The notes below the pieces were generated by a model. That model saw only the letters and a program-made list of their open reading frames with translations, was not told where the DNA came from and did no database searches. Both the position numbers and the translations under genes were made by a program. Positions 43,992 through 50,833 of a stretch of 64,000 bases of DNA are shown here, one piece after another; within the stretch, counting starts at the first letter, position 1, and each line of letters begins with the position of its first letter. Source of the stretch: Burkholderiales bacterium (GTDB lineage: Bacteria > Pseudomonadota > Gammaproteobacteria > Burkholderiales > SG8-41); NCBI GenBank assembly GCA_046596405.1, contig JBKJMN010000021.1, positions 750 to 64,749 on the forward strand, read 5' to 3'.

Positions 43992-44804
43992 GTGCATTTC
44001 CGGAAACTCTCCCGCATGAAGTTCCTGCAAAGCTGGCGCGTGCGCAAGGCCGCGGACGACAATGAATCGGTTTATATCAGCGAAAAATTCGGCGTGCGCA
44101 CGCTGCATATCGGCAGCGACACGGTACAAAGCTCGATGCGCATCGCGCGGCCGAACGATCTCGAAGTGTCGTATACGCGCAGCATGATGGCGTTTCTGCT
44201 CTTCAAACCGGAGCCTGAGACGGTGCTCATGATCGGACTGGGCGGCGGCTCCATCGCCAAATTTATCTATCACCAGTTGCCGAACACGCGCACCATCGCG
44301 ATCGAAGTCAGTTCGCAGGTGGTCGACATCGCGCGCCAGTACTTCTACGTACCGCGCAACGATGACCGGCTCGACATCATCGCCACCGACGGCGCCGCCT
44401 TTGTGCGGGACCACGCTATCGGTGCCGACGTAATGGTCGTCGATGGATACGACGCGGAATCCCAGGTCGAGGCGTTGTGCTCGCCGGCGTTTTACCGTGA
44501 TTGCGCGCGTGCGCTCGCCGACGATGGCATTCTGGTGGTCAATTTGTGGGGCGGCGACCGCAACTTCACGACGTGTGTTAACCGCCTCGCCAAAGCGTTC
44601 GACGGGTTGGTGGCATGCCTGCCCGCGGGCAAACCGGGCAATATCGCGGCGTTTGCTTTCAAACGCAGTCCGGGGCGGCCGGCGTGGCAGGATTTACATG
44701 CGCGCGCGGAGCAACTTGAAGCCCGTTACGGGCTTGAATTCACGCGTTTCGTGAAAGAGTTCACACTGATGAATCCGCACGACGCAGAGCGCCTGCTCTT
44801 GTAG
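43992..44804 (+). CDS. Spermidine-synthase-like SAM-dependent methyltransferase-fold protein
   Basis: VLMIGLGGGSIAKF....P......IE.......AR.YF and D.I..DG motifs. The start could instead be ATG 44016. Confidence 0.65.
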   Translation: MHFRKLSRMKFLQSWRVRKAADDNESVYISEKFGVRTLHIGSDTVQSSMRIARPNDLEVSYTRSMMAFLLFKPEPETVLMIGLGGGSIAKFIYHQLPNTRTIAIEVSSQVVDIARQYFYVPRNDDRLDIIATDGAAFVRDHAIGADVMVVDGYDAESQVEALCSPAFYRDCARALADDGILVVNLWGGDRNFTTCVNRLAKAFDGLVACLPAGKPGNIAAFAFKRSPGRPAWQDLHARAEQLEARYGLEFTRFVKEFTLMNPHDAERLLL

Positions 44805-44876
44805 CAAAGCGGCTTTCAATTCCACCGGCTTTGTGGAAGAATCTGACTCAATCAGCGCATACACAGGGTGACTCAC

Positions 44877-45389
44877 ATGATCGATCGTGACGGGTATCGC
44901 CCCAATGTCGGCATCATCATCTGCAATCTGAAAAATGAGGTCTTCTGGGGCAAGCGCGTCAAAGAACATTCATGGCAGTTCCCGCAGGGCGGCATCAAGG
45001 CCGGTGAAACGCCCGAGCGCGCGATGTTCCGCGAACTGCACGAGGAAGTGGGTCTCGGCGCCGAACACGTGCGGATACTCGGCCGCACGCGCGACTGGCT
45101 GCGCTACGAAGTTCCCGAACAATGGGTGCGCCGCGAGTGGCGCGGTAATTACAAGGGGCAGAAACAGATCTGGTATTTGCTGCGCCTCGTCGGTCGCGAT
45201 TGCGACGTGCACCTGCGGGCGTGCGAAAAGCCCGAATTCGATGCGTGGCGCTGGAACGATTATTGGGTGCCGCTCGAATCGGTGATCGAGTTTAAGCGGG
45301 ACGTTTATCAGCTCGCATTGAACGAGCTCGCGAAGTACTTGCACCGCAATCCGCACGAAAGGCGCCCGCACGTCGCCAGCGCGCCCTGA
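44877..45389 (+). CDS. rppH: RNA pyrophosphohydrolase (Nudix)
   Basis: [17 protein letters not shown]...[10 protein letters not shown]....AM.REL.EEVGL closely parallels E. coli RppH as I recall it. An alternative GTG start lies at 44868. Confidence 0.9.
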
Positions 45390-45412
45390 ACGTCCCGCGC
45401 GCACCCGCGCAA

Positions 45413-45474
45413 TTGACAGTTTTCGCCCGGAGTTTTACACTGGTTTCACGGATTAGATTCAGTCTAATTACGTG
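45413..45474 (+). promoter_or_regulatory. Candidate sigma-70 promoter (TTGACA-17-TACACT) with an adjacent palindromic operator ATTAGA-N5-TCTAAT
   Basis: -35 at 45413-45418 and -10 at 45436-45441. Inverted repeat 45452-45468, flanked by CACG/CGTG, begins 11 nt after the -10. About 100 nt upstream of the rubrerythrin ATG. Confidence 0.4.
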
Positions 45475-45568
45475 TCCGGTCGGGCAATCGTGTGTATGCA
45501 AGTATGAGCCCGGCCGATATCGCGCCGGCCCCGCGGGCCGGACGGCATTGAATAACAGGAGAAAAGCG

Positions 45569-45988
45569 ATGGAACTCAAAGGATCGAAAACCGAAGGGAA
45601 TCTGAAGGCCGCGTTCGCGGGCGAATCGCAAGCCAACCGCCGCTATCTTTATTTCGCAGCGAAAGCCGACGTCGAAGGGCAGAACGACGTTGCCGCCGTG
45701 TTCCGTTCGACCGCGGAAGGCGAAACCGGCCATGCGCATGGCCATCTCGAGTATCTAGAGGCCGTGGGCGACCCGGCAACCGGGCTGCCGATCGGCAAGT
45801 CGCGCGATAACCTGAAAGCCGCGATCGCCGGCGAGACCCACGAGTACACGGACATGTATCCCGGGATGTCGAAATCCGCGCGCCAGGAGGGTTTCGACGA
45901 AATCGCCGACTGGTTTGAGACGCTCGCAAAAGCCGAGCGCTCACATGCCAATCGATTCCAGAAGTCACTCGACGCGCTGACCGACTGA
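45569..45988 (+). CDS. Rubrerythrin-family diiron protein (no rubredoxin domain)
   Basis: ATG 45569 after an AGGAG RBS. TEGNLKAAFAGESQANRRY and two E..H motifs (ETGH, ERSH). 139 aa. Confidence 0.88.
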   Translation: MELKGSKTEGNLKAAFAGESQANRRYLYFAAKADVEGQNDVAAVFRSTAEGETGHAHGHLEYLEAVGDPATGLPIGKSRDNLKAAIAGETHEYTDMYPGMSKSARQEGFDEIADWFETLAKAERSHANRFQKSLDALTD

Positions 45989-46060
45989 CCGGGTAGCGGT
46001 TGCAAGCAGGCGGAAGGCTGACTAGCCTTTCGCCTTTTTTCTGTTCCCTGAAAGCATCAC

Positions 46061-47389
46061 ATGACCACGCGCGAAGGCAGCCTCGAAGCGCCCACCCGCC
46101 ATCCGCTGGGCTGGCAGGAGCCCGATTTTTACGATGAGCAAAAGGTCGTCGCGGAGCTCGAGCGCGTGTTCGATATCTGTCATGGCTGCCGGCGCTGCGT
46201 AAACCTGTGCACTGCGTTCCCGCGGCTATTCGACCTGATTGACGAAGGTAAAACCGGCGAACTCGACGGCGTCGACAAAAGCCGCTTCGGCGAGGTCGTC
46301 GATCGCTGTTATCTGTGCGACACCTGCTATATGACCAAGTGTCCTTACGTGCCGCCCCACCCCTGGAACGTAGATTTTCCGCACCTGATGCTGCGCGCGA
46401 AAGCGCTCAAGTACAAGCAGGGCGGAACTACGATGCGCGACAAGCTGCTGACCTCCACCGATGCGGTCGGCAAACTCGCGACCATTCCCGTGGTCGTGCG
46501 TTTCGTGAATGCCGCGAACAAGTCGCCGCTCGCGCGTGGCGCGATGGACAAAGTGCTCGGCGTGCATAAAGACCGCGTGCTGCCGGAATACGCGGCCCGG
46601 AAATTCAGGGCTCAAGCGCATCCCGACGCGTCTTTTGCGGTGCGCGCAGGCAAGACGACACCGGGTAAAGTAGCCGTTTTCGCGACCTGCTATGTCAACT
46701 ACAACGAACCCGGCCTTGGCCACGACTTGTTGAAGATACTTGCGCACAACGAGGTGCCGGCGATCGTCGTCGAGAAGGAAGCGTGCTGCGGCATGCCGAA
46801 ACTCGAACTCGGCGATCTCGACGCGGTGGCTAAGTTGAAGGAAATCAATATCCCGCACCTGGCGAAGCTCGCGCGCGAAGGATATGCGATTCTGACCGCG
46901 ATTCCGTCGTGCACGTTGATGTTCAAACAGGAGCTGCCGCTGATGTTCCCTGACGATGCCGACGTCAAGGCCGTGAAGGCCGCCATGTTTGATCCCTTCG
47001 AATACCTGGTGATGCGCAACAAGGACGGGCTGCTGAAAACGGATTTCAAGCACGGGCTCGGCAAAGTCTCGTATCACATACCGTGCCATTCGCGCGTGCA
47101 GAATGTCGGCCAGAAGACGCGCGAGATGCTGGCGCTGGTGCCCGCGACCGAGGTCAGCACGATCGAGAGGTGTTCGGGGCACGACGGCACCTGGGGCGTC
47201 AAAACCGAGTTTTTTGAGCAGTCGATGAAGATAGGCCGCCCCGTTTTCAGGCAAATGGCGGCGAGCGATCCGGATTTCATCAGCTCGGATTGCCCGATCG
47301 CGGCCCGCCATATCGAGCAGGGCATCGGCAAATCGCGCGCGCGCAAAGAGCATCCGCTTGCATTGCTGCGTATCGCATACGGCCTCTAA
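46061..47389 (+). CDS. HdrD/GlpC-like (Fe-S)-binding protein with two CCG domains
   Basis: Two ferredoxin-type Cys clusters (CHGCRRCVNLC, CYLCDTCYMTKCP), then CCG-domain signatures (FATCYVN...ACCGMP and IPCHSR...RCSGHDG). Confidence 0.8.
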   Translation: MTTREGSLEAPTRHPLGWQEPDFYDEQKVVAELERVFDICHGCRRCVNLCTAFPRLFDLIDEGKTGELDGVDKSRFGEVVDRCYLCDTCYMTKCPYVPPHPWNVDFPHLMLRAKALKYKQGGTTMRDKLLTSTDAVGKLATIPVVVRFVNAANKSPLARGAMDKVLGVHKDRVLPEYAARKFRAQAHPDASFAVRAGKTTPGKVAVFATCYVNYNEPGLGHDLLKILAHNEVPAIVVEKEACCGMPKLELGDLDAVAKLKEINIPHLAKLAREGYAILTAIPSCTLMFKQELPLMFPDDADVKAVKAAMFDPFEYLVMRNKDGLLKTDFKHGLGKVSYHIPCHSRVQNVGQKTREMLALVPATEVSTIERCSGHDGTWGVKTEFFEQSMKIGRPVFRQMAASDPDFISSDCPIAARHIEQGIGKSRARKEHPLALLRIAYGL

Positions 47390-47409
47390 ATTCTCCGCAC
47401 GGATCAACG

Positions 47410-47997
47410 ATGACTCATATCACCGCCGGCAGCCTGCTCACGTTAGAAGCTTATGCGAAGCAGCGCAAGGATTTCCGCACGCGCGTGCTCGCGCACAAGA
47501 AGCAACGCACGGTGGCGCTCGGCGAGCACGTTACGCTCATCTTTGAAGACGAGCTCACGGTCCGCTATCAGATCCAGGAAATGCTGCGCGTCGAGCGCAT
47601 TTTCGAGGAGGCCTGCATCCACGACGAGCTCGACGCCTACAATCCGCTGATACCCGACGGCAGCAACTGGAAGGCGACCATGTTGATCGAATATCCGGAC
47701 GTCGCCGAGCGCCAGGTCAAACTTGCGCTGCTGCGCGGGATCGAGGACAAGGTATGGGTGCGCGTAACCGGATACGAACGTGTACACGCGGTCGCGGATG
47801 AAGACATGGAGCGCACGAACGACGAGAAGACCTCCGCCGTGCACTTCCTGCGCTTCGAGTTGACGCCGCCGATGACGGCTGCGCTGGGTGCCGGCGGCGA
47901 TCTCGCCATCGGCGTCGACCACCCGGCCTATGGCGCAGCGGTCGACCGCGTGCCGGCGGCGGTGAAGTCGTCGCTGATTGCGGACTTGCGGGGCTGA
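47410..47997 (+). CDS. DUF3501-family protein
   Basis: ATG 47410, 20 nt after the Fe-S protein stop. 195 aa. Assigned from my recollection of the family and its conserved position after rubrerythrin and the CCG Fe-S protein. Confidence 0.6.
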   Translation: MTHITAGSLLTLEAYAKQRKDFRTRVLAHKKQRTVALGEHVTLIFEDELTVRYQIQEMLRVERIFEEACIHDELDAYNPLIPDGSNWKATMLIEYPDVAERQVKLALLRGIEDKVWVRVTGYERVHAVADEDMERTNDEKTSAVHFLRFELTPPMTAALGAGGDLAIGVDHPAYGAAVDRVPAAVKSSLIADLRG

Positions 47998-47998
47998 C

Positions 47999-48553
47999 AT
48001 GGGATGGTCCTCTGTGCGAAATCCGGCGGCAGTGTGTGCGCTCATGCTGCCGCTCTGCGCCTCCGCGCAGCTCTTGGAGCTGCTGACTGGCGAGCCCGAT
48101 CCGGAAAAAAAGGAATTCGTCGAACGCGAAGTCAAGCTGCCGCCGCTGCCCAAGCCGGAAAATCTGCTCGAGTTTCACCCGAGCGCGGCGAATGCCAACA
48201 AGTTTTTCATCGACGCCACTTCCATTTCGATAGACTCCGACGGCACCGTGCGCTATACGCTGGTGGTTAAAAGCCCGGGCGGCGCCGAAAACATTTCGTA
48301 CGAGGGTATTCGCTGCGAGACTATCGAGCAGAAGTATTTCGCGTTCGGCCGCCGCGACGGCACGTGGTCAGAGGCGCGTGCCCCGCTTTGGCGCAAGATC
48401 CACTATAAGGACATTAACCGCCAGTACGGCGTGCTCTACGCCAGTTACTTCTGCCCCGACGGCAGTCCCATCCGCTCCGCCAGGGATGCGATCAATCGTT
48501 TCAAGTATGGCGCGCCGTACGGCGAGCCACCGCGCACCAGCAACGGACGCTAG
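47999..48553 (+). CDS. CNP1-like secreted protein
   Basis: ATG 47999, 1 nt after the DUF3501 stop. Signal peptide. SID.DG.VRYTLV..S..GA.N.SYEGIRC......YA.G..DG.W motif. Confidence 0.6.
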   Translation: MGWSSVRNPAAVCALMLPLCASAQLLELLTGEPDPEKKEFVEREVKLPPLPKPENLLEFHPSAANANKFFIDATSISIDSDGTVRYTLVVKSPGGAENISYEGIRCETIEQKYFAFGRRDGTWSEARAPLWRKIHYKDINRQYGVLYASYFCPDGSPIRSARDAINRFKYGAPYGEPPRTSNGR

Positions 48554-48588
48554 CGCGCCTTCTTCGCCCCTGCGTCGGGGCGCGTGGC

Positions 48589-49707
48589 CTAGAGCAGGAC
48601 CAGATTGTCGCGGTGGATCAGTTCCGGCTCGTCGACGTAGCCGAGTTTGGCTTCGATCTCGCTCGACGGCGTTTTCAGGATTCGGCGCGTTTCGCCCGCG
48701 CTATAGTTGACCAGCCCGCGCGCGATTTCTGCGCCGTCCGGGCCGCAGCAACCGACCGCTTCACCGCGCTCGAATTCACCCGTGACTTCGTATACGCCAA
48801 TCGGCAGCAGGCTCGTTCGCTGCTCGCGCAGCGCCTTGACCGCGCCGGCATCGAGTATCAGCTTGCCGCGAACCTGCAGGTGATCGGCAAGCCATTGTTT
48901 GCGCGCGGCCAGTGTCTGGGTCTGCGCTTTCAACAAGGTCCCGATGCGTTCCCCGCGCGCGAGCCGCACGAGAACCTGCTCCTCGCGGCCGGAGGCGATT
49001 ATCGTATGCGCGCCGCTGCGCGCCGCGCGCTTGGCCGCGAGCACTTTCGTGAGCATGCCGCCCAGTCCGATGGCGCTGCCCGCACCGCCGGCAATTTTTT
49101 CCAGTTCCGGGTCGCCCGCGCGTGCTTCGTGGAGCAGCGTCGCTTGCGGATTTTTGCGCGGGTCCGCCGAAAAAAGCCCGGCCTGGTCGGTGAGGATCAC
49201 CAGCACGTCGGCCTCGACCAGATTGGTCACTAAAGCGCCCAGCGTGTCGTTGTCGCCGACGCGAATTTCGTCGGTCGCGACCGTATCGTTTTCGTTGATG
49301 ATCGGAATGACGCCCAGATCGAGCAGGGTGCGCAGGGTGGAGCGGGCGTTCAGATAGCGTTTGCGGTCCGCCATGTCCTCGTGCGTCAGAAGAATCTGCG
49401 ATGTGAGCAGCGAATGCTCGCGGAACCGGGATTCGTATGCTTCGATCAGGCCCATCTGGCCGACGGCCGCGGCCGCCTGGAGTTCGTGTACGGCGCTTGG
49501 CCGCCGCTTCCAGCCGAGCCTCTGCATGCCTTCGGCGATTGCACCGCTAGACACCAGCAGCACCTCGCGACCTAGTTTGCGCAATTCGGCGATTTGGGCA
49601 ACCCAGCGCGCGAGCGCGGCGTGGTCGAGTCCCTGCCCCTGGTTGGTGACCAGGCTACTGCCGACTTTAACGACCAGCCGTTTGGCGTTGGCAATTTCGG
49701 AGTTCAT
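48589..49707 (-). CDS. proB: Glutamate 5-kinase
   Basis: ATG 49707 ([21 protein letters not shown]). C-terminal PUA domain. 372 aa. Confidence 0.94.
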
Positions 49708-49735
49708 TTCGTTCGCACCATGAGCCGGCGGCAGC

Positions 49736-50833
<1,098 letters not shown>

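What the first reader, a model, noticed from the sequence alone, without database searches (positions are those of the whole stretch)
45413..48553. Rubrerythrin / HdrD-like CCG Fe-S protein / DUF3501 (/CNP1-like) operon with a palindromic operator: an uncharacterised redox module
Seen: four same-strand genes have short gaps (72, 20 and 1 nt). They sit behind a near-consensus promoter (TTGACA-17-TACACT). An ATTAGA-N5-TCTAAT inverted repeat starts 11 nt after the -10, a position typical of a repressor operator. The rubrerythrin lacks a rubredoxin domain, so it needs an external electron donor. The next protein combines two 4Fe-4S ferredoxin motifs with two CCG domains, as in HdrD, GlpC and LldEF. 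Established: CCG domains carry the non-cubane Fe-S clusters that reduce disulfides in heterodisulfide reductases, and rubrerythrins are peroxidases. DUF3501 has no assigned function. I recall this trio recurring in other proteobacterial genomes. Inference: the trio may form a self-contained electron-transfer system, for example thiol/disulfide- or quinone-linked peroxide reduction, under a dedicated repressor such as a PerR/Fur/Rrf2-like factor.
Basis: partly seen in the sequence, partly recalled or inferred. Interest (0 to 1): 0.55.

Follow-up and report, generated by a model that had tools for sequence, protein, structure and literature searches.

The report
Known rubrerythrin trio, PerR/Irr-type operator
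This is one more copy of the already described three-gene "aerobic-type rubrerythrin" peroxide-defence cluster; the new part is that its palindrome is a conserved operator of the type used by PerR/Irr-like (Fur-family) repressors.

Summary
The rubrerythrin / CCG Fe-S protein / DUF3501 trio is not new. Cardenas et al. 2016 named it the aerobic-type RBR + RFO + DUF3501 cluster (triple co-occurrence in 185 genomes). Gray et al. 2020 called it a three-component system. In B. pseudomallei all three genes are co-induced by H2O2. Its biochemistry is still untested.

New here:
- The promoter plus palindrome is conserved at a fixed distance in 20 of 66 betaproteobacterial rbr upstream regions.
- It has the 7-3-7 geometry of the Irr "ICE" box. 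An exact 15-mer of it lies in front of rubrerythrin genes (36 of 120 metagenome hits) and of autoregulated PerR/Irr-like Fur-family genes (21 of 120).
- 18 other loci carry an OxyR-type site instead, with no overlap.
- A stable hairpin follows rbr in 63 of 64 loci.
- CNP1 is an exported neighbour that tracks proB, not a member of the module.

The regulator is not in the window and was not found in any Betaproteobacterium.

Verdict: new member of a known kind, moderate interest.

The parts
45413..45441 (+). Sigma-70-type promoter: TTGACA (45413-45418), 17-nt spacer, TACACT (45436-45441)
   Evidence: 10/12 match, the only site in 44800-48900. The same TTGACA-17-TAnnnT arrangement is conserved upstream of rbr in the related loci.
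45452..45468 (.). Operator ATTAGAT-TCA-GTCTAAT, a 7-3-7 inverted repeat of the PerR/Irr (ICE-like) type. It spans about +4 to +20 relative to the transcription start inferred from the -10.
   Evidence: fixed 11-nt distance from the -10 in 17/20. (the same 15-mer lies in front of Rbr genes and autoregulated Fur-family genes). ICE consensus TTTAGAA-N3-TTCTAAA is from PMC1698941.
45569..45988 (+). Aerobic-type rubrerythrin, 139 aa, no rubredoxin domain. Di-iron ligands E19, E52, H55, E90, E93, E123, H126 are present by inspection.
   Evidence: PDB sequence hits: B. pseudomallei Rbr 4DI0/8FUH/9ONM at about 5e-77, sulerythrin 1J30 at 5e-49.
46008..46045 (+). Terminator-like hairpin (12 bp, 7 G-C pairs, loop 4) followed by TTTTTTCTGT, in the rbr/RFO spacer. 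Read as a partial terminator or 3'-stabiliser.
   Evidence: A hairpin of -15 kcal/mol or stronger is present in 63/64 Rbr-RFO spacers (median -26.4), against 6/52 RFO-DUF3501 spacers. The strict hairpin plus T-run criterion is met in 27/70.
46061..47389 (+). [quoted passage not shown] GlpC-like but below the GlpC cut-offs.
   Evidence: All 15 Cys are invariant in 64/64 orthologues. No PDB relative by sequence or by profile.
47410..47997 (+). DUF3501 protein (195 aa), the conserved partner of aerobic-type rubrerythrin. Fold known, function unknown.
   Evidence: 2e-71. PDB 3FJV from B. pseudomallei at 2e-62. AF2 model pLDDT 78. No other significant fold match in PDB.
47999..48553 (+). CNP1-like exported protein. 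Probably co-transcribed here (1-nt gap), but it is a neighbour and not a conserved member of the module.
   Evidence: N-terminal signal peptide. Adjacent in 33/71 loci, separated by another gene in 11, absent in 27. Present in 30/30 loci where proB is nearby and in 14/41 otherwise.

Best explanation
[quoted passage not shown] It is inserted between rppH and the CNP1-proB-obg block of a betaproteobacterial chromosome with 62% G+C.

Shown:
- The three genes keep this order in essentially all related loci.
- They are driven by a conserved sigma-70 promoter.
- A conserved 17-bp inverted repeat lies just after that promoter's -10.
- A stable hairpin follows rbr.

Inferred mechanism:
- Under unstressed conditions a Fur-family repressor of the PerR/Irr clade, encoded elsewhere in the genome, sits on the operator at about +4 to +20 and blocks transcription.
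- H2O2 inactivates the repressor by metal-catalysed oxidation of its regulatory-site histidines, as in PerR. Alternatively, iron or haem status does so, as in Irr. The operon is then de-repressed.
- The hairpin after rbr ends or stabilises most transcripts there, so Rbr is made in excess over RFO and DUF3501, which need read-through.
- Rbr reduces H2O2 at its di-iron site.
- RFO (two [4Fe-4S] clusters plus a CCG-type site) replaces the missing rubredoxin domain as electron supplier. By analogy with GlpC, GlcF and SdhE-type CCG proteins, it most likely draws on the quinol pool or a low-molecular-weight thiol.
- DUF3501 has no Cys and no cofactor motif, and it accompanies Rbr even where RFO is absent. 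It probably acts as an adaptor or metallo-chaperone for Rbr rather than as a redox carrier.
- CNP1 is periplasmic and unrelated to this chemistry.
For: Gene identities.

Published description of the trio and its co-occurrence: triple co-occurrence in 185 of 4461 genomes, Rbr+DUF3501 only in 25 (PMC5114695). [quoted passage not shown]

Order Rbr-RFO-DUF3501 in the 80 loci.

Expression: B. pseudomallei BPSS1837-1839 (hypothetical protein, 'ferredoxin', rubrerythrin) are induced together by H2O2, with near-identical values of 3.37, 3.31 and 3.36 (PMC4175613).

Operator:
- 23 of 23 exact TTAGA-N5-TCTAA matches in 915 kb lie upstream of rbr.
- The distance to the -10 is fixed.
- The geometry is that of ICE, TTTAGAA-N3-TTCTAAA. 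L058 carries a perfect ICE, TTTAGAATTATTCTAAA.
- A metagenome scan for TTAGACTTAGTCTAA returned 120 loci. 36 sites lie upstream of Rbr and 21 lie 80 nt or less upstream of Fur-family genes. That is 49 of the 62 contigs with 50% G+C or more.
- Those regulators score best against PerRA, IrrA, Irr and PerR models, and Fur and Zur models score far lower.
- They keep the PerR regulatory ligands H37, D85, H91, H93 and D104.
- They sit next to katG, ahpC-type and AhpD-type genes.

Independent support for peroxide control: 18 other rbr loci carry an OxyR-type ATnG-N7-CnAT-N7-ATnG-N7-CnAT site instead, with no overlap with the 20 PerR/Irr-type loci. OxyR homologues are adjacent in some of them.

Hairpin.

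RFO: Cys pattern and absence of a transmembrane segment. CNP1: signal peptide.
Against: - No Fur-family gene lies in the window or in any of the 80 betaproteobacterial loci near the operon.
- The regulators found beside the exact box are named, where named at all, as Polyangiaceae/Myxococcales, Thermoanaerobaculia and Pyrinomonadaceae. None is from Betaproteobacteria. The regulator assignment for this genome is therefore an inference from an identical DNA site.
- They fall below every NCBIfam PerR and Irr cut-off.
- The transcription start is inferred from the -10, not measured.
- Nothing here tests peroxidase activity, the electron donor, contacts between the three proteins, or read-through of the hairpin.
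- The B. pseudomallei study found its orthologous genes to be sigma-E dependent, so regulation differs between lineages.
- The CCG domains have 7 Cys rather than 10, so the cofactor content is uncertain.
Confidence: 0.65

Rival explanations
1. Iron-sparing or iron-handling module. The ICE-like box means Irr-style control by iron or haem, so an iron-rich system (2 Fe per Rbr, 8 or more per RFO) is shut off under iron limitation. Rbr may serve in iron or metal handling rather than as a peroxidase.
For: The box has ICE geometry, and one locus (L058) carries a perfect ICE. The Cys-less regulators carry the HHH motif, lack the Zn(Cys)4 site as Irr does, and are named 'iron response regulator' by JGI. 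B. pseudomallei Rbr binds several metals (PMC12154734). Irr represses genes for iron-containing proteins, including the erythrin-domain protein blr7895/MbfA.
Against: The regulators sit beside katG, ahpC-type and AhpD-type genes. Other genes behind the same box look like cytochrome c peroxidase and MsrB (by eye). Sister lineages use an OxyR-type site on the same operon. The B. pseudomallei orthologues are H2O2-induced. Peroxidase activity is reported for sulerythrin (cited in PMC12154734). The PerR models score as well as the Irr models.
Confidence: 0.2
2. The Fe-S protein is a GlpC/GlcF/LldF-type subunit of a substrate dehydrogenase (glycerol-3-phosphate, glycolate or lactate) whose partners are encoded elsewhere. 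Its position next to rubrerythrin would then be incidental.
For: The best NCBIfam matches are GlpC models (242 and 173 bits), with weaker LdhH, TfrB and GlcF matches.
Against: All matches are below the curated cut-offs (278, 279.9, 800, 333). No flavoprotein partner gene lies nearby. The position between rbr and DUF3501 is kept in essentially all loci. Co-occurrence with Rbr and DUF3501 is nearly exclusive in 4461 genomes. It is co-induced with Rbr by H2O2 in B. pseudomallei.
Confidence: 0.05
3. The palindrome acts as an RNA element, a 5'-terminal stem-loop that stabilises the mRNA or controls translation, rather than as a DNA operator.
For: It would be transcribed if the start is about 7 nt after the -10. 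A 6-bp stem with a 5-nt loop can form. The gene just upstream is the RNA pyrophosphohydrolase rppH.
Against: The stem bases are invariant and show no compensatory changes, while the loop varies. The stem is weak and A/U-rich. The same 15-mer lies between -35-like hexamers and the start codons of Fur-family genes, and inside the -35/-10 spacer in L028 and L048, which are not leader positions. There is no Rfam match.
Confidence: 0.05
4. A regulator of another family (TetR, GntR, Rrf2, LysR) that happens to recognise a similar 7-3-7 palindrome controls the operon in Betaproteobacteria. The Fur-family link would then hold only in other phyla.
For: No PerR/Irr-like gene was found in any betaproteobacterial sequence examined. 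The TAGAC-N3-GTCTA core also fits a T-N11-A pattern.
Against: Betaproteobacterial loci with proS/rppH synteny carry the identical 15-17-mer that fronts the Fur-family genes (L083, L101, L106, L124, L138, L167). No candidate regulator of any family is consistently adjacent.
Confidence: 0.1

Closest known systems
[quoted passage not shown] 2020, PMC7050145). Examples are B. pseudomallei BPSS1839-1837 and the Sulfolobus tokodaii sulerythrin cluster.
   Same: Same three protein families in the same order. The Rbr lacks the rubredoxin domain and is about 5e-77 from B. pseudomallei Rbr. The DUF3501 protein is 2e-62 from 3FJV. The Fe-S protein is GlpC-like with CCG domains.
   Different: Nothing essential differs in the proteins. 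Chromosomal setting (between rppH and CNP1-proB) and regulation (a PerR/Irr-type box rather than the OxyR-type site seen in other lineages) are lineage-specific.
Irr / ICE (iron control element) of Alphaproteobacteria, and PerR boxes such as the Desulfovibrio consensus AwnAGnAAtngTTnCTnwT (PMC1698941, PMC545781)
   Same: A 7-3-7 inverted repeat built on TTAGA...TCTAA. It overlaps the start-site region of an erythrin-family gene. Fur-family genes carry the same site in their own promoters.
   Different: The consensus here is (A/T)TTAGA(C/T)-N3-GTCTAA(T/A), with G where ICE has T at the inner position. The host is a betaproteobacterium, where Irr/ICE was reported absent in 2006. The cognate regulator was not seen in this genome. 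The Irr target blr7895 is MbfA, not an aerobic-type Rbr.
Classical rubrerythrin systems of anaerobes (D. vulgaris perR-rbr-rdl; P. furiosus Rbr with rubredoxin/NROR)
   Same: A di-iron four-helix-bundle peroxidase under PerR-type control.
   Different: There is no rubredoxin domain or rubredoxin gene, and the regulator is not in the operon. The predicted reductase is a CCG/Fe-S protein plus DUF3501.
GlpC / GlcF / HdrD-type CCG Fe-S subunits
   Same: Two CxxCxxCxxxC(P)-type ferredoxin motifs followed by two CCG domains. No transmembrane helix.
   Different: Below the GlpC and GlcF equivalog cut-offs. The CCG domains have 4+3 Cys. There is no flavoprotein or cytochrome b partner gene.

Membership tests
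Aerobic-type rubrerythrin three-component system (RBR-RFO-DUF3501) | Rubrerythrin of the sulerythrin/BpRbr clade without a rubredoxin domain | tested here: met
   139 aa with the Pfam Rubrerythrin domain only. Best PDB hits are BpRbr at about 5e-77 and sulerythrin at 5e-49. Classical Rbr scores 1e-26 and only over the bundle.
Aerobic-type rubrerythrin three-component system (RBR-RFO-DUF3501) | DUF3501 (PF12007) gene in the same cluster | tested here: met
   47410-47997, PF12007 at 2e-71. 3FJV at 2e-62.
Aerobic-type rubrerythrin three-component system (RBR-RFO-DUF3501) | COG0247-type Fe-S oxidoreductase with CCG domains (RFO) in the same cluster, GlpC as nearest outgroup | tested here: met
   46061-47389. 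Two CCG stretches. GlpC is the best NCBIfam match but below cut-off. The position between rbr and DUF3501 matches the related loci.
Aerobic-type rubrerythrin three-component system (RBR-RFO-DUF3501) | Complete di-iron ligand set (two ExxH plus two further Glu) | tested here: met
   E19, E52-x2-H55, E90, E93 and E123-x2-H126 read from the translation. They correspond to E20, E53, H56 and E124 of BpRbr.
Aerobic-type rubrerythrin three-component system (RBR-RFO-DUF3501) | The three proteins act together in peroxide reduction | not testable with these tools
   Only indirect evidence: co-induction by H2O2 in B. pseudomallei. No biochemical study turned up in the library.
GlpC (anaerobic glycerol-3-phosphate dehydrogenase subunit C) | Score above the NCBIfam equivalog cut-off, and glpA/glpB partners | tested here: not met
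   242 bits against 278 and 173 against 279.9. No glpA- or glpB-like ORF nearby.
HdrB/HdrD-type heterodisulfide reductase CCG module | Two CCG domains, each with the five-Cys pattern CXnCCGXmCXXC (pattern from Pfam and established knowledge) | tested here: not met
   Domain 1 has C210, C242, C243 and C284. Domain 2 has C342, C371 (CSG) and C411. That is 4+3 invariant Cys with no CXXC.
PerR/Irr-type (ICE-like) operator | 7-3-7 inverted repeat matching TTTAGAA-N3-TTCTAAA | tested here: met
   ATTAGAT-TCA-GTCTAAT has the same geometry, with TTAGA and TCTAA identical to ICE. The family consensus differs at the inner position, G in place of T.
PerR/Irr-type (ICE-like) operator | Position compatible with repression (overlapping the promoter or start site) | tested here: met
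   It begins at the 11th base after the -10, in the window and in 17/20 homologous promoters. The transcription start itself is inferred.
PerR/Irr-type (ICE-like) operator | The same site occurs in the promoters of Fur-family regulator genes and of peroxide-defence genes (a regulon) | tested here: met
   21 of 120 exact 15-mer hits lie 80 nt or less upstream of Fur-family genes, and 36 lie upstream of Rbr. The regulators' neighbours include katG, ahpC-type and AhpD-type genes.
PerR/Irr-type (ICE-like) operator | A cognate PerR/Irr-like regulator is encoded in the same genome and binds the site | not testable with these tools
   None in the 64-kb window or in the 80 loci. Only this window of the source genome was available. 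Named regulator homologues come from other phyla.
OxyR-controlled promoter | Four ATAG-like elements spaced ATnG-N7-CnAT-N7-ATnG-N7-CnAT next to the -35 | tested here: not met
   No match in 45201-45570 (best 6/12) and none in the whole window. The pattern is present at 11/12 or better in 18 other rbr loci.
CNP1-like gene as a member of the module | Conserved linkage with the trio, independent of the chromosomal neighbourhood, and the same cell compartment | tested here: not met
   Adjacent in 33/71 loci, separated by another gene in 11, absent in 27. Present in 30/30 loci with proB nearby and 14/41 without. It has a signal peptide, whereas Rbr, RFO and DUF3501 have none.

The most novel reading that the evidence does not exclude
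The TTAGAC-N3-GTCTAA box defines a cross-phylum regulon that has not been described in the papers I could search. It would be run by PerR/Irr-like Fur-family repressors, including a Cys-less, HHH-motif 'Irr-like' group outside the Alphaproteobacteria. Its core target would be the aerobic-type rubrerythrin operon, and Betaproteobacteria such as this one would carry an as yet unseen member. Within that regulon, RFO plus DUF3501 would form a new kind of rubrerythrin reductase that couples the quinol pool (or a thiol) to H2O2 reduction without NAD(P)H or rubredoxin.
Probability: 0.35. Interest if true: 0.6.

Novelty: new member of a known kind. Interest (0 to 1): 0.35.

Why it matters
The aerobic-type rubrerythrin trio is widespread: bacteria, archaea and the mitochondria of several protist lineages. 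The electron donor of Rbr and the roles of RFO and DUF3501 have been open since at least 2016. This window adds nothing to the proteins themselves.

The regulatory findings do give that question practical handles:
- There are two mutually exclusive peroxide-sensor inputs on the same operon, a PerR/Irr-type box and an OxyR-type site. This argues that the whole trio, not only Rbr, is a peroxide-stress device.
- The box gives a simple sequence probe for finding the regulator and further regulon members.
- The hairpin after rbr predicts unequal stoichiometry, which should be allowed for in reconstitution experiments.
- The Cys-less PerR/Irr-like regulators outside the Alphaproteobacteria may interest people working on Fur-family evolution.

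Tried and rejected
- Rfam scan of 44000-50000 at E up to 1: only a spurious viral hairpin match inside DUF3501. There is no known leader RNA.
- Regulator in the window or next to the operon: tblastn with Fur, Irr, PerR, OxyR and IscR probes, and later with the 21 recovered regulators, found nothing in the window. In the 80 loci it found only an ordinary Fur in L051 and OxyR in four loci. Family assignment rests on Pfam, NCBIfam and annotated PLSDB hits.
- Tying the regulators to Betaproteobacteria: two database searches and one cluster look-up gave only Myxococcota and Acidobacteriota names. tblastx of the regulator loci against the window and loci was uninformative. PLSDB has no betaproteobacterial hit.
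- The CBS-domain gene between rppH and rbr in L002 and others was considered as a regulator. It was rejected because it has no DNA-binding domain and is absent from the window.
- DUF3501 fusions as functional hints: the best 150 of 2631 family representatives are stand-alone proteins or fragments.
- RFO structure: no PDB relative by sequence or by profile.
- The blr7895 'rubrerythrin' parallel with Irr was downgraded. That gene is MbfA (an erythrin-domain protein), not an aerobic-type Rbr.
- DtxR/IdeR, classical Fur, B. subtilis PerR, CIRCE and LexA boxes were compared by eye and do not fit.

Full report
**Observation.** Rbr is at 45569-45988, the CCG/Fe-S protein at 46061-47389, DUF3501 at 47410-47997 and the CNP1-like gene at 47999-48553. 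The gaps are 72, 20 and 1 nt. Pfam assigns Rubrerythrin (139 aa, no rubredoxin domain), two CCG stretches with weak Fer4 matches, DUF3501 (2e-71) and CNP1 (1e-44). TTGACA-17-TACACT at 45413-45441 is the only sigma-70-like site in 44800-48900. ATTAGA-N5-TCTAAT at 45452-45468 begins at the 11th base after the -10 and is unique in the window. Within the window alone, neither the promoter match nor the palindrome exceeds chance. Their significance comes from comparison with other genomes.

**Flanks.** On the left are proS (minus strand), a spermidine-synthase-like methyltransferase and the NUDIX hydrolase rppH. On the right are proB and obg (minus strand). The window has 61.7% G+C. The closest genome locus found, L002, is a groundwater 'Betaproteobacteria bacterium' MAG. 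Its proteins are 73-96% identical to those of the window.

**The trio is already known.**
- Cardenas, Quatrini and Holmes (2016, PMC5114695) defined an 'aerobic-type' rubrerythrin lineage without the rubredoxin domain. They showed its co-localisation and co-occurrence with DUF3501 and a COG0247 Fe-S oxidoreductase, which they named RFO. All three occur together in 185 of 4461 genomes, and Rbr with DUF3501 alone in 25. They proposed that RFO compensates for the lost rubredoxin domain.
- Gray et al. [quoted passage not shown]
- The B. pseudomallei proteins have crystal structures. Rbr is 4DI0/8FUH/9ONM, at about 5e-77 to the window protein. DUF3501 is 3FJV, at 2e-62.
- A 2025 preprint describes the B. 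pseudomallei operon as Rbr plus a DUF protein plus an Fe-S oxidoreductase.
- In B. pseudomallei, BPSS1837, BPSS1838 and BPSS1839 rise together on H2O2 exposure, with values of 3.37, 3.31 and 3.36 in Table 1 of PMC4175613.
- I found no paper that assigns a biochemical role to RFO or DUF3501.

**Conservation of gene order.** A genome-collection scan with the DUF3501 protein returned 80 betaproteobacterial loci at 63-73% identity. Rbr-RFO-DUF3501 keeps this order in essentially every locus long enough to show it. A few loci have Rbr-DUF3501 without RFO (L049, L052, L066).

**CNP1 behaves differently.**
- Among 71 loci with at least 2.5 kb downstream, CNP1 is adjacent in 33, separated by another gene in 11 and absent in 27.
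- It is present in 30 of 30 loci where proB is nearby, but in only 14 of 41 where it is not.
- In L002 a cfa-synthase-like gene lies between DUF3501 and CNP1.
- CNP1 has an N-terminal signal peptide, whereas Rbr, RFO and DUF3501 have no hydrophobic segment.
- CNP1 is therefore a resident of the proB neighbourhood that is probably co-transcribed in this genome. It is not part of the module.

**Promoter and operator.** Twenty of 66 rbr upstream regions, including the window, contain TTAGA-N5-TCTAA. In 17 of those 20 a TAnnnT hexamer ends exactly 11 nt before it, with TTGACA 17 nt further upstream. Across 915 kb (window plus 80 loci) the motif occurs 23 times, and every occurrence is upstream of rbr. 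L028 and L048 each carry a second copy inside the -35/-10 spacer. From base composition I estimate about 0.15 occurrences by chance. The arm bases are invariant while the centre varies, which is the pattern of a protein-binding site and not of an RNA helix. The consensus is (A/T)TTAGA(C/T)-N3-GTCTAA(T/A). If transcription starts about 7 nt after the -10 (inferred), the site covers about +4 to +20, a classical repressor position.

**What binds the operator.**
- The geometry and arms match the Irr 'iron control element', 5'-TTTAGAA-N3-TTCTAAA-3' (Rodionov et al. 2006, PMC1698941). L058 carries a perfect ICE, TTTAGAATTATTCTAAA. The Desulfovibrio PerR box AwnAGnAAtngTTnCTnwT is of the same kind (PMC545781).
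- I scanned the metagenome collection for the perfect-palindrome version, TTAGACTTAGTCTAA. The scan stopped at 120 loci.
- In 36 loci the site is 260 nt or less upstream of an aerobic-type Rbr gene, often followed by RFO and DUF3501. In 21 loci it is 80 nt or less upstream of a Fur-family gene, typically as TTGACA-N9-10-box-N3-14-start codon.
- 50 of the remaining 63 loci are contigs below 50% G+C, where chance matches are expected. Of the 62 contigs at 50% G+C or above, 49 belong to the two gene classes above.
- Six of the Rbr hits have the betaproteobacterial proS/rppH synteny and the same promoter architecture as the window: L083, L101, L106, L124, L138 and L167.

**The regulators.**
- One group has 129-137 aa, no CxxC pairs and an HHHF motif.
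- A second group is PerR-like with two CxxC pairs. There are also some low-G+C and single forms.
- In alignment, the first group keeps the five PerR regulatory-site ligands (H37, D85, H91, H93, D104) but lacks the Zn(Cys)4 site, as Irr does.
- NCBIfam scores them best against PerRA, IrrA, Irr and PerR models (86-94 bits, all below the cut-offs of 150-200). Fur and Zur models score far lower.
- In PLSDB their best relatives are annotated IrrA and PerR, at 31-35% identity.
- Their neighbours include a catalase-peroxidase, an AhpC-type peroxiredoxin and an AhpD-type protein.
- By eye, other genes behind the same 15-mer resemble cytochrome c peroxidase, MsrB and a metal-transporter binding protein.
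- Together this is the signature of an autoregulated PerR/Irr-type peroxide regulon.

**Limit of that inference.** No such regulator lies in the window or near the operon in the 80 loci. The homologues that carry an organism name are from Polyangiaceae/Myxococcales, Thermoanaerobaculia and Pyrinomonadaceae. For this genome the assignment rests on identity of the DNA site, not on a regulator that was seen.

**A second regulatory regime.** Eighteen other rbr upstream regions match an OxyR-type pattern, ATnG-N7-CnAT-N7-ATnG-N7-CnAT, at 11 or more of 12 positions. The pattern abuts a TTGGAC -35 element. None of these 18 overlaps the 20 with the PerR/Irr-type box, and the window has no such pattern. 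OxyR homologues lie beside the operon in L014, L032, L040 and L050. Two alternative peroxide sensors on the same operon in sister lineages support a peroxide-stress role for the whole trio.

**Hairpin after rbr.** The 72-nt rbr/RFO spacer holds a 12-bp hairpin followed by TTTTTTCTGT (46008-46045). Only about 15 nt remain before the RFO start codon. A hairpin of -15 kcal/mol or stronger is present in 63 of 64 Rbr-RFO spacers (median -26.4), against 6 of 52 RFO-DUF3501 spacers (median -7.0). The sequences are not conserved. The strict hairpin plus T-run criterion is met in 27 of 70. I read this as a partial terminator or 3'-end stabiliser that gives more Rbr than RFO and DUF3501. The near-equal induction of the three B. 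pseudomallei genes shows that read-through occurs there.

**Proteins.**
- Rbr has the full di-iron ligand set (compared).
- RFO has 15 Cys, all invariant in 64 of 64 orthologues. They form C40xxC43xxC46xxxC50, C83xxC86xxC89xxxxC94, a first CCG domain with C210, C242-C243-G and C284, and a second with C342, C371-S-G and C411.
- That is 4+3 Cys rather than the 5+5 of HdrB-type domains, so the cofactor at the CCG site cannot be assumed to be a pair of non-cubane clusters.
- RFO scores below the GlpC, GlcF and LdhH cut-offs. It has no solved relative detectable by sequence or profile.
- The DUF3501 model (pLDDT 78) matches only 3FJV. The family has about 2600 clusters at 50% identity, mostly stand-alone proteins.

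**Mechanism.** The shown and inferred steps are separated in the Best explanation section. In brief, a PerR/Irr-type repressor bound at about +4 to +20 is released by H2O2, or by iron or haem status. Rbr is then made in excess, and RFO and DUF3501 are made by read-through. RFO supplies electrons to the di-iron site of Rbr, most plausibly from quinol or a thiol, by analogy with other CCG proteins. DUF3501 serves as an adaptor or metallo-chaperone. The main rival is an iron-sparing, Irr-style logic. The regulators' neighbours and the OxyR alternative argue against it but do not exclude it.

**Verdict.** The finding is real and well described, but its centrepiece is a published, named gene cluster. 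This window is one more member of it. What is added here is the operator family and its link to PerR/Irr-like regulators, the mutually exclusive OxyR alternative, the conserved hairpin after rbr, and the exclusion of CNP1. Interest is moderate (0.35). The open question, how aerobic-type rubrerythrin is reduced and what DUF3501 does, remains open and needs biochemistry.

Noticed in passing
L028 3819 and 3849; L048 3856 and 3885: Two copies of TTAGA-N5-TCTAA at the rbr promoter. One lies inside the -35/-10 spacer and one at the usual place after the -10.
   Followed up: partly
L198 446-1362: Two divergent rubrerythrin genes (about 86-87% identical to the window Rbr) flank a single box at 897, so one operator could serve both.
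   Followed up: no
L166 about 1020-1065: The box sits inside a perfect palindrome of about 45 bp upstream of a 182-aa Fur-family gene.
   Followed up: no
L128 (site at 2231), L096 (3314), L195 (7158): In high-G+C metagenome contigs the exact 15-mer also precedes genes whose translations look like a di-haem cytochrome c peroxidase, MsrB and a metal ABC-transporter binding protein. They are possible further regulon members, identified by eye only.
   Followed up: partly
L179 6199-8959; L123 581-1117; L135 1250-1810: PerR/Irr-like regulator genes carrying the box are followed by a catalase-peroxidase, an AhpC/TSA peroxiredoxin and a CMD/AhpD-family protein.
   Followed up: yes
L002 3220-3813 and 6705-7916: In the closest relative a CBS-domain gene lies between rppH and rbr, and a cfa-synthase-like gene lies between DUF3501 and CNP1. 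Both are absent from the window.
   Followed up: partly
L045 6765-7415 (also L008, L037, L061, L019); L113 1-651: A radical-SAM gene directly follows DUF3501 in several loci that lack the PerR/Irr-type box (two of them have the OxyR-type site). A homologue at about 50% identity lies beside a PerR-like gene in L113.
   Followed up: partly
L049, L052, L066 (possibly L043): Rbr-DUF3501 pairs without RFO occur in Burkholderiales MAGs, as reported for other lineages. DUF3501 is thus the more constant partner of Rbr.
   Followed up: no
L014 2802-3689 and 6839-7306: An OxyR homologue lies divergent from rbr, and a second, distant rubrerythrin-like gene (36% identity) follows DUF3501.
   Followed up: no
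L015, upstream of 4115: A long poly-C run lies directly upstream of the rbr promoter, probably an assembly artefact.
   Followed up: no
window 48560-48585: A short G+C-rich hairpin (CGCCCC-tgcgtc-GGGGCG) lies in the 35-nt gap between the convergent CNP1 and proB genes. It is a possible bidirectional terminator, but the consensus scan did not call it.
   Followed up: no
window 45500-45550: The inferred 5' leader of about 120 nt contains a G+C-rich inverted repeat (CCGGCCC-cgc-GGGCCGG). There is no Rfam match, and the leaders of related loci differ in sequence and length.
   Followed up: partly
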